This document shows, in pieces, positions 147 through 37,210 of a stretch of DNA of 64,000 nucleotides. The notes below the pieces were generated by a model. That model was not told the origin of the DNA and did not search any database. It worked only from the letters and a program-made list of their open reading frames with translations. The position numbers and the translations under genes are program-made. Each line of letters opens with the position of its first letter. Positions within the stretch are counted from its first letter, which is position 1. Source of the DNA: Alphaproteobacteria bacterium (GTDB taxonomy: Bacteria; Pseudomonadota; Alphaproteobacteria; CAAHEQ01; UBA3637); the NCBI GenBank assembly GCA_017466695.1, contig JAFTTR010000002.1, forward strand, positions 70,837-134,836. The letters run 5' to 3'.

Positions 147-406
147 TTTCCCCCCCACTATGTAATTTAATAAAGAACTATAGGATATCGTACATTGTAT
201 CATATATTTCAAAATTAATCAATTTTTTATTAAAGTATAGACTAAAACTATTCTGGCGACTTATCTGTTTTGGCTGGGGTGGCTGGATTGTAAATTGCAA
301 GGCAATTTATCCTGCGCTTTCGCTTAGGACCGTCCTATCGGACGTCGTTCGCCTTCGACTCACCGAACCAACTCATCCGTTGGTCAAATCCCCTCACCTA
401 GCCAAT

Positions 407-430
407 AAAAAAACGCCCCTTTCGGAGCGC
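407..430 (-). terminator. Rho-independent terminator (minus-strand reading CGCUCC-GAAA-GGGGCG followed by U7)
   Basis: On the minus strand this forms a 6-bp stem with one U.G pair and a GAAA tetraloop, followed by a U7 run (plus-strand aaaaaaa at 407-413). Same structure as the terminator at 575-598. Confidence 0.6.
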
Positions 431-574
431 TTTTTTAAACGCTAGAGGTGGCTGGATTGTAAATTGCAAGGCAATTTATCCTGCGCTTTCGCTTGGACCG
501 TCCTATCGGACGTCGTTCGCCTTCGGCTCACCGAACCAACTCATCCGTTGGTCAAATCCCCTCACCCAGCCATT

Positions 575-598
575 AAAAAAACGCCCCTTTCGGAGCGC
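575..598 (-). terminator. Rho-independent terminator immediately downstream of tRNA-Gln
   Basis: Minus-strand hairpin CGCUCC-GAAA-GGGGCG followed by UUUUUUU, directly 3' of the tRNA CCA end. Confidence 0.65.
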
Positions 599-606
599 TT
601 TTTTAT

Positions 607-681
607 TGGCTGGGGTGGCTGGATTCGAACCAACGGATGGCGGAATCAGAATCCGCTGCCTTACCACTTGGCGACACCCCA
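607..681 (-). tRNA. tRNA-Gln (anticodon CUG), CCA encoded
   Basis: Minus-strand read: UGGGGUGUCGCCAAGUGGUAAGGCAGCGGAUUCUGAUUCCGCCAUCCGUUGGUUCGAAUCCAGCCACCCCAGCCA. Cloverleaf folds with a 7-bp acceptor stem (U1-A72); anticodon loop UUCUGAU; T-loop UUCGAAU. Confidence 0.9.
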
Positions 682-731
682 AAACATATTTACTCATACA
701 TTGTTCTATGCAAAAATGCAAGAACTTTTTT

Positions 732-19444: not shown

Positions 19445-19592
19445 AAGAAACCCCCAATTGGATGTGTTAATATTCGTTTATTTTTGAATATATTATAACA
19501 AATTTTAATAAAAAGCAATATTTTTTCATTTTTTTTAATATTTTTTATTGACATTTATATTTTTTGAGGCTATAAGTATTTTATCAACGATG

Positions 19593-19667
19593 GCGGAATA
19601 GCTCAGATGGTAGAGCGGTGGAATCATAATCCATGTGTCGGGGGTTCGATCCCCTCTTCCGCTACCA
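19593..19667 (+). tRNA. tRNA-Met (anticodon CAU; elongator-type; could alternatively be tRNA-Ile2/lysidine)
   Basis: GGCGGAAUAGCUCAGAUGGUAGAGCGGUGGAAUCAUAAUCCAUGUGUCGGGGGUUCGAUCCCCUCUUCCGCUACCA; anticodon loop AUCAUAA; no initiator signature (no GGG/CCC anticodon stem). Confidence 0.88.
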
Positions 19668-19670
19668 GTT

Positions 19671-19704
19671 AAAAGACCTTGTAGAAATGCAAGGTCTTTT
19701 TTTT
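19671..19704 (+). terminator. Rho-independent terminator after tRNA-Met
   Basis: aagaccttg-tagaaatg-caaggtctt hairpin followed by tttttttt. Confidence 0.75.
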
Positions 19705-19715
19705 ATGCATATGAG

Positions 19716-20114
19716 AATAACCATAGAGGTAGAGGGTGGCATCATAATTCCAAGTGCCCAAGGGTTCTAACCCCTCTTGTGCTACCAGTTAGAAAGGGCC
19801 TCGTAGAAATACGAGGTCTTTTTTTTGCTTTTATCCCGTATCAAAGGACAAAATAGCTATAGAGGTAGAGCGGTGGAATCTCAATTCCACCATCTTTTCA
19901 ACTTCGGCTCACCGCCTTGTTTCAAAGTGGTTCATTGCTTTACGCAGAAAAACAGTTCCCCAAACTGTTTTTCTTTACGCAGTCAAGTGCCCAAGGATTC
20001 TAACCCCTCTTGTGCTACCAGTTAGAAAGGGCCTTGTAGAAATACGAGGTCTTTTTTTTATATGTAAGAGAACACCTATAGAGATAGAGGGTAAAATCAT
20101 AATTCCATGTTGAT
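19716..20114 (+). repeat. Array of degenerate or partial tRNA-Met copies with associated hairpin terminators. Components: a near-full-length pseudo-tRNA at 19724-19787 plus terminator at 19792-19827; a 5' fragment at 19858-19890; a ~90-bp insert at 19891-19981; a 3' fragment at 19982-20020 plus terminator at 20025-20059; a 5' fragment at 20077-20114.
   Basis: Direct reading: atagaggtagag(c/g)g(g)tgg(c/a)atc(a/t)(t/c)aattcca... and ...agtgcccaag(g/a)(g/a)ttctaacccctcttgtgctaccagttagaaagggcc(t/c)(c/t)gtagaaatacgaggtcttttttt recur with mutations. The D-arm and T-arm are disrupted, so these are non-functional copies. Confidence 0.8.
19724..19787 (+). pseudogene. tRNA-Met pseudogene (degenerate copy; CAU anticodon loop retained, D- and T-arms mutated)
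   Basis: atagaggtagagggtggcatcataattccaagtgcccaagggttctaacccctcttgtgctacca compared with the intact tRNA at 19593-19667. Confidence 0.7.
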
Positions 20115-37115: not shown

Positions 37116-37210
37116 CCGGCGCAAGGGTCTGAGCTGGCGCATGGTGTGTGAGCTGGCGTGTGGGGGTGAGCTGGCGCATGGTGTGTGAGTTGGCGTGTAG
37201 GTCTGAGCTA
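37116..37210. repeat. GC-rich tandem repeat, ~18-19-bp units alternating two variants (tgagctggcgcatggtgtg / tgagctggcgtgtggggg), about 4.5 units
   Basis: Direct reading of gtctgagctggcgcatggtgtgtgagctggcgtgtgggggtgagctggcgcatggtgtgtgagttggcgtgtaggtctgagcta, within a 410-bp convergent intergenic region. Confidence 0.75.

What the first reader, a model, noticed from the sequence alone, without database searches (positions are those of the whole stretch)
240..690. tRNA-Gln followed by two tandem ~175-bp repeats that each re-use the tRNA 3' end and carry their own GAAA-tetraloop terminator
Seen directly: the last ~20 nt of tRNA-Gln (plus-strand ggctggggtggctggatt) recur at 271 and 447 in phase with the real tRNA at 608. 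Each repeat body is ~115 bp of nearly identical, GC-richer sequence containing a near-palindromic core (ggaccgtcc...ggacgtcg; exact secondary structure not derived). Each body ends in the same CGCUCC-GAAA-GGGGCG-U7 terminator used by the tRNA itself. Duplicated tRNA 3' ends are the classic footprint of site-specific integration at a tRNA gene (attL/attR scars). Two identical scars in tandem with no integrase or cargo is unusual. The alternative is a small structured RNA family that is tRNA-primed or tRNA-terminated and co-transcribed with tRNA-Gln.
Basis: seen in the sequence. Interest (0 to 1): 0.6.

Follow-up and report, generated by a model that had tools for sequence, protein, structure and literature searches.

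The report
Hairpin cassettes stacked behind tRNA-Gln
The two ~168-bp repeats behind tRNA-Gln are copies of an apparently undescribed, protein-less, hairpin-rich cassette that sits at the 3' end of tRNA genes in a group of uncultured gut Alphaproteobacteria, carries a terminator plus inverted and direct copies of the tRNA's tail, and varies in number and type between near-identical strains.

Summary
tRNA-Gln(CUG) lies at 607-681 on the minus strand. It is followed by two units that are 95% identical, with a period of 168 bp.

Read in the tRNA direction, each unit has five parts:
- an A-run, a GAAA-loop terminator and a T-run;
- an inverted copy of the tRNA's last ~30 nt;
- a 4-6-nt loop;
- a direct copy of the T-arm 5' half (GTTGGTTCG), then a 73-74-nt GC-rich module of four hairpins placed exactly at T-loop G57|A58;
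- a direct copy of the last 19 nt. This copy is perfect at 271-289 and only 12 nt long at 447-458.

About 30 distinct units from more than 25 related metagenomic loci share this architecture. They occur behind tRNA-Gln, tRNA-Pro and tRNA-Asn, each with arms that match the local tRNA. Strains carry 0, 1, 2 or at least 3 units, and clean empty sites exist. Terminators, arms and modules reassort between units. Stems are conserved while loops vary. The units are 51% GC, against about 25% GC in the flanking spacers.

I found no Rfam family, no promoter-like site, no nearby integrase and no phage or plasmid match.

My best reading (confidence ~0.45) is a non-autonomous cassette that targets the tRNA 3' end, an att module moved in trans or by recombination. 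Rival readings are passive duplication in place and a structured RNA. I rate it a new variant of a known kind, with interest of about 0.6.

The parts
607..681 (-). tRNA-Gln(CUG), intact, with encoded CCA. Its last 19 nt (607-625, from T-loop A58 to CCA) form the repeated 'tail'.
   Evidence: ARAGORN; Rfam tRNA 60.4 bits
573..606 (-). Unit 1 terminator block: ATAAAAAA, stem-loop GCGCTCC-GAAA-GGGGCG (582-598), then T7AA. It serves as the tRNA's terminator. Together with the tRNA tail and the arm it forms a palindrome of about 70 nt.
   Evidence: Sequence; coordinates; inverted repeat I1; fold
545..572 (-). Unit 1 arm: TGGCTGGGTGAGGGGATTTGACCAACGG, an inverted copy of tRNA positions ~47-76.
   Evidence: Alignment to the reverse complement of the tRNA tail: 0/2000 shuffles reach the score. 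A direct alignment to the tRNA is not significant.
532..553 (-). Unit 1 P2 hairpin, GACCAAC-GGATGA-GTTGGTT (534-553). It contains the direct copy of the T-arm 5' half, GTTGGTTCG (532-540).
   Evidence: (7 pairs kept in 11/11 sequences)
459..531 (-). Unit 1 module (73 nt, 53% GC): S1 513-531, H2 499-512, H3 478-498 (GTCC...GGAT with an inner GC-GAAA-GC), H4 461-477, AC 459-460.
441..458 (-). Middle copy of the tRNA tail: 12 nt intact (447-458, AATCCAGCCACC), then TCTAGC(G), a version of CCCAGCC decayed by C-to-T changes.
405..440 (-). Unit 2 terminator block: TTTAAAAAA, the same stem-loop (414-430), then T7AT.
   Evidence: (D1)
377..404 (-). Unit 2 arm: TGGCTAGGTGAGGGGATTTGACCAACGG, the inverted tail copy with one G-to-A change relative to unit 1.
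364..385 (-). Unit 2 P2 hairpin (366-385) with the direct GTTGGTTCG (364-372).
290..363 (-). Unit 2 module (74 nt): S1 345-363, H2 331-344, H3 309-330, H4 292-308, AC 290-291.
271..289 (-). Distal perfect copy (19/19) of the tRNA tail, AATCCAGCCACCCCAGCCA.
248..270 (-). Original flank of tRNA-Gln: AAACAGATAAGTCGCCAGAATAG. This is the native terminator seen intact in relatives (GTCGCTAGAAATAGCGAC-T5). Here it has lost its 3' stem.
   Evidence: Comparison with L005, L006, L007, L027 and L048

Best explanation
The repeats are two copies of a small (150-185 bp), protein-less, hairpin-rich cassette specific for the 3' end of tRNA genes.

Relative to an empty site, one cassette is an insertion at T-loop position G57|A58. 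It begins with its own copy of the tRNA tail (A58 to CCA), which keeps the tRNA intact. It then supplies an intrinsic terminator. Next come an inverted copy of the tRNA's last ~30 nt, a short loop, a direct copy of the T-arm 5' half and a four-hairpin GC-rich module. The displaced original tail follows the cassette.

I infer that the cassette is a non-autonomous att module. It would be moved or exchanged by recombination at the shared tail or core sequences, catalysed in trans by an enzyme I did not identify, or by homologous recombination after DNA transfer. Tandem arrays would arise by repeated insertion or by unequal crossing-over between the 19-nt tails.

A single strand of one cassette, opened at the insertion point, folds into a closed chain of hairpins in which the inverted arm pairs with the two direct tail segments. 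This may be the form that is recognised.

Shown: the anatomy, the polymorphism, the occurrence at three tRNAs, and the conserved stems. Inferred: the mobility mechanism, the enzyme and the folded intermediate.
For: (1) The inverted arm matches the reverse complement of the local tRNA tail for Gln, Pro and Asn units. Zero to 2 of 2000 shuffles reach the score, and a direct alignment is not significant.

(2) The same architecture lies behind tRNA-Pro(UGG) in L012 and tRNA-Asn(GUU) in L014, which come from other alphaproteobacterial MAGs (metagenome-assembled genomes). Each ends in that tRNA's own tail. They also share sequence that is not tRNA-derived. AGTTGGTTCG is present even where tRNA-Pro itself has TTCA. 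The 15-mer AGTTGGTTCGGTGAG is shared by the Asn units and Gln type A units. The last hairpin is similar between the Asn unit and L033, with 4/300 shuffles reaching the score.

(3) The insertion/deletion is precise. L007 equals the empty site L027 plus one unit flanked by the 19-nt repeat. A second empty site is L048.

(4) Copy number differs between near-identical strains. The window and L001 have 2 units. L010 is 99.99% identical and has at least 3. L004 is 98.3% identical and has 1. L025 has 2 and L027 has 0 at 99.6% identity.

(5) Terminator types, arm types and modules occur in nearly all combinations.

(6) A 1.5-kb islet in L030 is flanked by direct repeats of about 270 bp, each made of a unit plus the native terminator. 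Other islets also end in a unit.

(7) The hairpins look constrained. H2 has three fully complementary stem versions. The H4 stem is the same in 14 of 16 units despite 7 loop variants. Units are 51% GC versus 24-25% in the flanking spacers. The permuted unit folds with z = -7.

(8) In this genome the native tRNA-Gln terminator has decayed, so the cassette terminator now serves the tRNA.
Against: - No integrase, transposase or reverse transcriptase lies in the window or beside any array. The only recombinase seen, a large serine recombinase in L009, belongs to a different element and has a different junction.
- A 168-bp double-stranded circle is an implausible recombination substrate.
- Strain polymorphism and mosaicism could be produced by homologous recombination alone.
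- Only three tRNA contexts were found, and the search pattern required the GTTGG T-arm core. Apparent target specificity is therefore partly built into the search.
- Similarity of modules across tRNAs is modest (Asn 4/300) or not significant (Pro 26/300).
- The middle tail copy is more decayed than the distal one. That is not the order a simple model of serial insertion next to the tRNA predicts.
Confidence: 0.45

Rival explanations
1. Passive evolution in place. The tRNA tail plus terminator was duplicated by slippage or unequal crossing-over. The inverted arm arose by template switching at the terminator hairpin (palindrome extension or quasi-palindrome correction). Units then decay under AT-biased mutation. 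On this view there is no mobility and no function.
For: The two window units are 95% identical and exactly in tandem. Decayed tail and arm variants differ from the tRNA sequence mostly by C-to-T and G-to-A changes (TCTAGC/TTTAGC from CCCAGC; AGAGTAA from GGGGTGG). The variant tail TCTAGCG is followed by an arm carrying the matching A (GGCTAGG), as palindrome correction predicts. Mosaics break at the longest conserved block, as homologous recombination would give. No recombinase was found.
Against: The same multi-part architecture, including non-templated shared sequence, occurs behind tRNA-Pro and tRNA-Asn in other lineages. Stems are conserved while loops vary freely. The 51% GC is maintained in a 36% GC genome with ~25% GC spacers. 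Units also lie at the far ends of islets. A random template switch would not repeatedly stop at tRNA position 47 and then place a module exactly at G57|A58.
Confidence: 0.2
2. Each unit is a gene for a structured small RNA. It would be made by read-through from the tRNA-Gln promoter and trimmed to a tRNA-like CCA end. The RNA contains a 30-nt antisense to the tRNA's 3' third and a chain of hairpins, and the RNA itself has a function, such as regulation or decoy action on tRNA-processing or tRNA-targeting factors. This reading is compatible with the element also being mobile.
For: Single-strand folds are far more stable than shuffles (z -3.9 to -4.8; -7). The tRNA-sense strand folds better than the antisense strand in 25 of 26 modules, by 4.5 kcal/mol on average. 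The inner loop of H3 varies among the GNRA tetraloops GAAA, GCAA and GAGA, and H2 stems covary (TGCC/GGCA versus CGCC/GGCG). Terminator stems use G-U pairs that exist only on the sense strand.
Against: There is no sigma-70-like promoter in or before the units. Every unit lies behind a strong intrinsic terminator. Strains with zero units exist, so the units are dispensable. No Rfam family matches and ARAGORN finds no tmRNA. The sequences in the strand test are related, so 25/26 is not 25 independent trials. GCGAAAGC and GCGAAGC are also known as very stable DNA mini-hairpins (from my own knowledge).
Confidence: 0.2
3. Classical attL/attR scars. Two genomic islands with tyrosine integrases once integrated at tRNA-Gln, and their interiors were later deleted. 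Only the att-proximal DNA remains.
For: The identity block runs from the T-loop to CCA. The site is a hot spot for variable islets and for a prophage-like element. Empty sites exist.
Against: There is no integrase remnant in any of more than 25 loci. The unit has constant size and architecture across lineages and tRNAs. The inverted arm and the split T-arm copy are not features of known attP arms. Different unit types sit in tandem with nothing between them.
Confidence: 0.1

Closest known systems
Integrative elements that target tRNA genes at the T-loop sublocation (tyrosine-integrase phages, islands and ICEs; Williams 2002 classification, from my own knowledge)
   Same: The insertion regenerates the tRNA from an element-borne copy of the segment from the T-loop to CCA and displaces the original tail. 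Direct repeats of the tail flank the insert. Empty sites exist in relatives. The tRNA is a hot spot.
   Different: No integrase and no cargo. The whole element is about 168 bp. It carries an inverted copy of the last ~30 nt and a T-arm copy split by a hairpin module. Several different units stand directly in tandem.
CIMEs, the cis-mobilizable, integrase-less elements bounded by att sites (described in Streptococcus; from my own knowledge; review PMC5704250 was listed but not read)
   Same: Non-autonomous DNA bounded by att repeats at a tRNA or gene 3' end, found in tandem ('accretion') and presumed to be moved in trans.
   Different: CIMEs are kilobases long and derive from a recognisable ICE whose integrase is known. 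Here no cognate autonomous element was found.
Folded single-strand recombination sites: integron attC sites and the CTX-phi attP(+) hairpin used by XerCD (from my own knowledge)
   Same: Structure is conserved while sequence varies. The length is about 60-150 nt. An imperfect inverted repeat recreates a duplex resembling the target. There is no element-borne recombinase (CTX-phi). Arrays occur. The P2 arms GACCAAC/GTTGGTT match the attC consensus RYYYAAC/GTTRRRY at 6 of 7 positions each.
   Different: No intI gene and no dif-like sequence. The target is a tRNA gene. Folding is only predicted. The attC resemblance is recalled from memory, not tested.
Bacterial mosaic palindromic repeats: REP/BIME/REPIN, Rickettsia palindromic elements and other MITEs (miniature inverted-repeat transposable elements)
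   Same: Short, non-coding, hairpin-forming, mosaic elements in intergenic DNA. Some act as terminators.
   Different: Those families have tens to hundreds of dispersed copies and element-specific ends. These units occur at one to a few loci per genome, always at a tRNA tail or an islet end, with ends copied from the local tRNA.
tRNA-linked or tRNA-like RNAs: 3' external transcribed spacer sRNAs, tmRNA, YrlA/Y-RNA-like RNAs
   Same: Located directly downstream of a tRNA, with a CCA-ending tRNA-like 3' segment and a highly structured sequence.
   Different: No Rfam or ARAGORN match. A terminator separates the units from the tRNA. In the predicted fold the CCA end is base-paired.

Membership tests
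tRNA-targeting integrative element (attL/attR) | Direct repeat identical to the tRNA 3' segment on both sides of the insert, starting in the T-loop or the anticodon loop | tested here: met
   19/19 repeat at 607-625 and 271-289, starting at T-loop A58. A 20-nt repeat flanks the tRNA-Pro unit in L012.
tRNA-targeting integrative element (attL/attR) | Integrase gene inside or next to the insert | tested here: not met
   No recombinase Pfam domain appears among called genes around any array or in the window. The units contain no conserved ORF.
tRNA-targeting integrative element (attL/attR) | Empty site in related genomes with the same flanks | tested here: met
   L027 and L048 have the tRNA followed directly by the native terminator. 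L007 and L005 equal that site plus one unit.
CIME / non-autonomous integrative element | A cognate autonomous element using the same att site in related strains | tested here: inconclusive
   L009 has a serine-recombinase element abutting the same tRNA, but its junction sequence is unrelated to the units. No tyrosine integrase was seen. Only about 10 kb around each locus could be read.
MITE | Element-specific terminal inverted repeats and many dispersed copies | tested here: not met
   The inverted repeat is a copy of the local tRNA tail, not an element end. nhmmer finds only the two units in the 64-kb window, and 1-3 loci per MAG in the genome scan.
Known RNA families (Rfam 15), tmRNA | Covariance-model or ARAGORN match | tested here: not met
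   Only tRNA hits. The best other hit is Atu_C8 at 23 bits against a 50-bit threshold, driven by the terminator.
Independent sRNA gene | Own promoter and a discrete transcript | tested here: inconclusive
   No sigma-70-like site within 271-606. Transcripts cannot be tested with these tools.
Folded single-strand att site (attC / CTX-phi type) | Conserved hairpin architecture with variable sequence | tested here: met
   The result rests on prediction only.
Folded single-strand att site (attC / CTX-phi type) | Cognate recombinase (IntI or XerCD) and its core-site consensus | not testable with these tools
   No intI nearby. The whole genome cannot be scanned. The attC-like 6/7 matches come from memory.

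The most novel reading that the evidence does not exclude
The cassette could be a self-contained mobile att site. As a single strand (DNA or RNA), its inverted arm pairs with its two direct tail segments and rebuilds a duplex image of the tRNA gene's last 30 bp, with the hairpin module branching off at the T-loop. A host recombinase would then recombine this folded form with the real tRNA gene, as XerCD does for CTX-phi or IntI for attC. That would be the first folded-hairpin, recombinase-less element that targets tRNA genes and retargets itself by copying the tail of its host tRNA.
Probability: 0.15. Interest if true: 0.85.

Novelty: new variant of a known kind. Interest (0 to 1): 0.6.

Why it matters
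tRNA tails are the classic landing pads for genomic islands, but the known players all bring an integrase.

Here a 168-bp element with no protein repairs the tRNA and replaces its terminator. In this genome the native terminator has decayed. The element copies the tRNA tail in both orientations. It also varies between strains that are otherwise 99.99% identical.

If the element is mobile, it defines a minimal tRNA-targeting module and a handle for finding the enzyme that moves it. If it is an RNA, it is a new tRNA-linked structured RNA family in uncultured gut Alphaproteobacteria. Either way it marks a fast-evolving hot spot that is useful for strain typing, and it shows how terminators can be exchanged as cassettes.

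Tried and rejected
- **Known RNA family or tmRNA.** A GCGAACGACG stretch looked like the start of a tmRNA tag. ARAGORN and Rfam gave nothing, so I dropped it.
- **Direct pseudo-tRNA-Gln.** Aligning the arm directly to tRNA positions 1-48 is not significant (312-1004 of 2000 shuffles reach the score), whereas the inverted alignment gives 0/2000.
- **Classical MITE with terminal inverted repeats.** Rejected because the 'repeats' change with the host tRNA.
- **Recombination core.** The palindrome GAACCAAC-N6-GTTGGTTC looked like a recombinase core site. It turned out to be the junction of the inverted and direct T-arm copies, so it is not independent evidence.
- **Phage or plasmid origin.** No blastn match and no hit in the viral contig scan.
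- **Metagenome scan.** It returned only chance hits inside genes, plus a duplicate of L014.
- **RNAalifold on a MAFFT alignment.** It recovered only P2 and H4, because MAFFT misaligns stems of different length. I counted the hairpins by anchoring on conserved flanks instead.
- **More distant relatives.** Those with HPr (phosphocarrier protein) 64-73% identical to the window's copy have other synteny and no units.
- **Literature.** Four full-text searches found nothing that describes this element.

Full report
**Observation**

The window carries tRNA-Gln(CUG) at 607-681 on the minus strand. Tandem Repeats Finder reports a 168-bp period with 2.1 copies at 94% identity over 273-625. A global alignment of the two units gives 144/151 identical positions.

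The tRNA's last 19 nt (AATCCAGCCACCCCAGCCA, 607-625) recur perfectly at 271-289. At the middle position only the first 12 nt survive (447-458), followed by TCTAGCG. The GCGCTCC-GAAA-GGGGCG-T7 stem-loop occurs at 582-598 and 414-430.

The window is 100% identical over 11.4 kb to an independently fetched contig (L001, ENA ERZ28018926, 376 kb). The arrangement is therefore not an assembly accident. The period is 168 bp. The middle tail copy is partial. Body 2 is followed not by the GAAA terminator but by the remains of the original one.

**Anatomy**

Read in the tRNA direction, each unit consists of the following parts.
- (i) An A-run, a terminator hairpin and a T-run.
- (ii) The arm TGGCT(G/A)GGTGAGGGGATTTGACCAACGG.
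- (iii) A four-base loop.
- (iv) GTTGGTTCG.
- (v) A 73-74-nt module.
- (vi) The tail copy.

The arm is an inverted copy of the tRNA's last ~30 nt. The reverse complement of the tRNA tail is TGGCTGGGGTGGCTGGATTCGAACCAACGG. None of 2000 shuffles reaches the alignment score, while a direct alignment of the arm to the tRNA's 5' two-thirds is not significant.

GTTGGTTCG is a direct copy of the T-stem 5' strand plus the first four T-loop bases. The tail copy starts with the next base, A58. The unit therefore contains a direct copy of tRNA positions 49-76, interrupted exactly at G57|A58 by the module.

The module consists of four adjacent hairpins (S1, H2, H3, H4).

If a unit is written starting at A58 of the preceding tail, it folds into an unbroken chain of hairpins. 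The first is a 71-nt hairpin made of tail, terminator and arm. P2, S1, H2, H3 and H4 follow. The energy is -72.9 kcal/mol against -41 for shuffles (z = -7.2).

**Context**

The window is core chromosome of an uncultured, AT-rich (36% GC) alphaproteobacterium. It carries HprK-C/EIIA-Man/HPr (the phosphotransferase-related genes beside tRNA-Gln), LysS, GcrA, PolA, RpoD, DnaG and Mfd. No integrase, transposase or reverse transcriptase is present. The units are 51% GC, while the neighbouring spacers are 24-25% GC.

**Related sequences**

I used the neighbouring EIIA and HPr proteins as handles and fetched more than 25 related loci. I extracted about 30 distinct units from them.

The number of units behind tRNA-Gln varies:
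- 0 in L027, L048 and L009;
- 1 in L004, L005, L007 and L029-L035;
- 2 in the window/L001, L002, L003, L006, L008 and L025;
- at least 3 in L010.

L010 is 99.99% identical to the window over 11 kb. L004 is 98.3% identical. L025 and L027 are 99.6% identical upstream yet carry 2 and 0 units.

In the empty sites the tRNA is followed directly by the native terminator, AGTCAGATAAGTCGCTAGAAATAGCGAC-T5. L007 and L005 equal that site plus exactly one unit bounded by the tail repeat.

In the window's lineage the native terminator has lost its 3' stem (248-270). The unit's terminator is therefore now the only terminator behind the tRNA.

**Modularity**

Units come with at least four terminator hairpins of unrelated sequence, three arm types and three main module types (A, as in the window; B; C), plus hybrids. 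Nearly every combination is seen.

Breakpoints cluster at the longest conserved block, CCAACGG-loop-AGTTGGTTCG. That pattern fits recombination between units, but it does not tell site-specific from homologous exchange.

Decayed tails (TCTAGC, TTTAGC, TTAAGC) and arms (AGAGTAA for GGGGTGG) differ from the tRNA-derived sequence mainly by C-to-T and G-to-A changes.

**Other tRNAs**

I made one exact-pattern scan of 185,579 species-representative genomes with ACCAACGGNNNAGTTGGTTCG. It returned four real hits, all in uncultured Alphaproteobacteria MAGs, plus four chance hits inside genes.

Two of the real hits lie behind other tRNAs: tRNA-Pro(UGG) in L012 and tRNA-Asn(GUU) in L014. Both show the same order of parts: AATAAAA, terminator, TTTTTTATTG, inverted copy of that tRNA's own tail, loop, AGTTGGTTCG, hairpin module, copy of that tRNA's tail. 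The tail copy is 20 nt and perfect for Pro. For Asn it is 8-9 nt.

All three host tRNAs share the T-arm CGTTGGTTCRAATCC. The units also share sequence that the local tRNA cannot have templated:
- TTCG where tRNA-Pro has TTCA;
- GTGAG after the core in both the Asn units and the Gln type A units;
- a similar last hairpin in the Asn unit and L033, with 4/300 shuffles reaching the score.

The Pro module's similarity is not significant (26/300). Because the search pattern required this core, units at tRNAs with other T-arms would have been missed.

The metagenome and viral scans added nothing. Neither did blastn against phages and plasmids.

**Constraint on structure**

H2 exists in three fully complementary versions (CGTCC/GGACG, TGCC/GGCA, CGCC/GGCG) with six different loops. 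The closing pairs of H3 change U-A to C-G together, and its inner loop varies among GAAA, GCAA and GAGA. The H4 stem is the same in 14 of 16 units while its loop has seven variants.

The tRNA-sense strand of the module folds more stably than the antisense strand in 25 of 26 units, by 4.5 kcal/mol on average. These sequences are related, so this is not 25 independent trials.

Together with the high GC content, this argues that the hairpins are maintained, either as RNA or as single-stranded DNA of the sense strand.

**Expression**

There is no sigma-70-like site in or before the units. Each unit lies behind a strong terminator, and some strains have no unit. No Rfam family or tmRNA matches.

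**Islets**

tRNA-Gln is a hot spot. Downstream gene content differs between lineages. L009 has a serine-recombinase element abutting the CCA.

Further units lie 1-3.5 kb downstream at the far end of small islets, at L001:14343, L005:11776, L007:11973, L018 and L030:4957. In L030 a 1.5-kb islet is flanked by direct repeats of about 270 bp. Each repeat is a unit plus the native terminator, and the two units are of different mosaic type. This looks like a Campbell-type insertion through a unit.

**Interpretation**

The tail duplication, the precise empty sites, the spread to three tRNAs with matched ends, the strain-level copy-number changes and the units at islet borders fit a non-autonomous, tRNA-tail-specific cassette that acts as an att module (confidence ~0.45).

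How it moves is inferred, not shown. No enzyme was found. A 168-bp duplex circle is unlikely. Homologous recombination could explain much of the polymorphism.

The inverted arm may be part of a folded recognition form, or it may be a product of palindrome correction at the terminator. There are three rivals:
- passive duplication and decay in place (0.2);
- a structured RNA made by read-through (0.2), which is not exclusive of mobility;
- ordinary scars of integrase-bearing islands (0.1).

**Comparison and verdict**

The element works like the att region of a T-loop-targeting integrative element, and like an integrase-less CIME. It fails the membership test for an integrase and for a cognate autonomous element. 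It is not a MITE, not a REP-type repeat, and not a known RNA family. Its conserved-structure, variable-sequence character and its recreated target duplex resemble integron attC sites and the CTX-phi attP hairpin. That resemblance is a lead only.

I rate it a new variant of a known kind, with interest of about 0.6. The most novel reading not excluded is a folded, self-retargeting att element without a recombinase of its own, to which I give about 15%.

Noticed in passing
window 19592-20110 (+): tRNA-Met(CAU) at 19592-19667 is followed by three copies of a terminator (19671-19700, 19791-19824, 20024-20057). Between them lie direct, 5'-truncated pseudo-tRNA-Met copies that clearly align to the tRNA: psi1 19722-19787, psi2 19852-19891 plus 19983-20020, and a partial psi3 20076-20109. 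There is no inverted arm, so this tRNA-linked array has a different architecture from the Gln units.
   Followed up: partly
window 19892-19982 (+): A 91-nt insertion splits pseudo-tRNA-Met copy 2 between the anticodon arm and the T-arm. It contains CTTCGGCTCACCG, the reverse complement of the S1 motif of the Gln units (3 matches in the window versus 0.01 expected). It also contains a 'ttacgcag-hairpin-ttacgcag' element, which also occurs next to tRNA-Gln arrays in L005, L007, L025 and L032.
   Followed up: partly
L002, L003, L005, L007, L025, L027, L029, L048 (about 25 nt after the native tRNA-Gln terminator): A conserved inverted-repeat element of about 50 nt, GTCCGTGTACAG...CTACACGGAC. The far ends of the islets carry a related sequence, (G/C)TCCGTGTATTACCAGnnnnCTCCAGCCA, followed by another unit. 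These may be the borders of the islets.
   Followed up: no
L009 6809-8554: A large serine recombinase (Resolvase plus Recombinase domains), with dUTPase and RtcB genes behind it, abuts the CCA of tRNA-Gln. This locus has no units, and the element brings its own terminator-like hairpin.
   Followed up: no
window 248-270: The native tRNA-Gln terminator, intact in relatives, has lost its 3' stem in this lineage (window, L001, L004). Termination now depends on the cassette terminators.
   Followed up: partly
window 37118-37191: A GC-rich 37-nt tandem duplicate (84% identity) lies in the spacer downstream of rpoD (family D17).
   Followed up: no
L043 3161-3290: tRNA-Val(CAC) in a more distant relative is followed by ATAAATA, a terminator, TTTTTATGGT and a weakly arm-like and T-arm-like sequence. 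It may be a decayed unit at a tRNA with a different T-arm, but the similarity is marginal.
   Followed up: no
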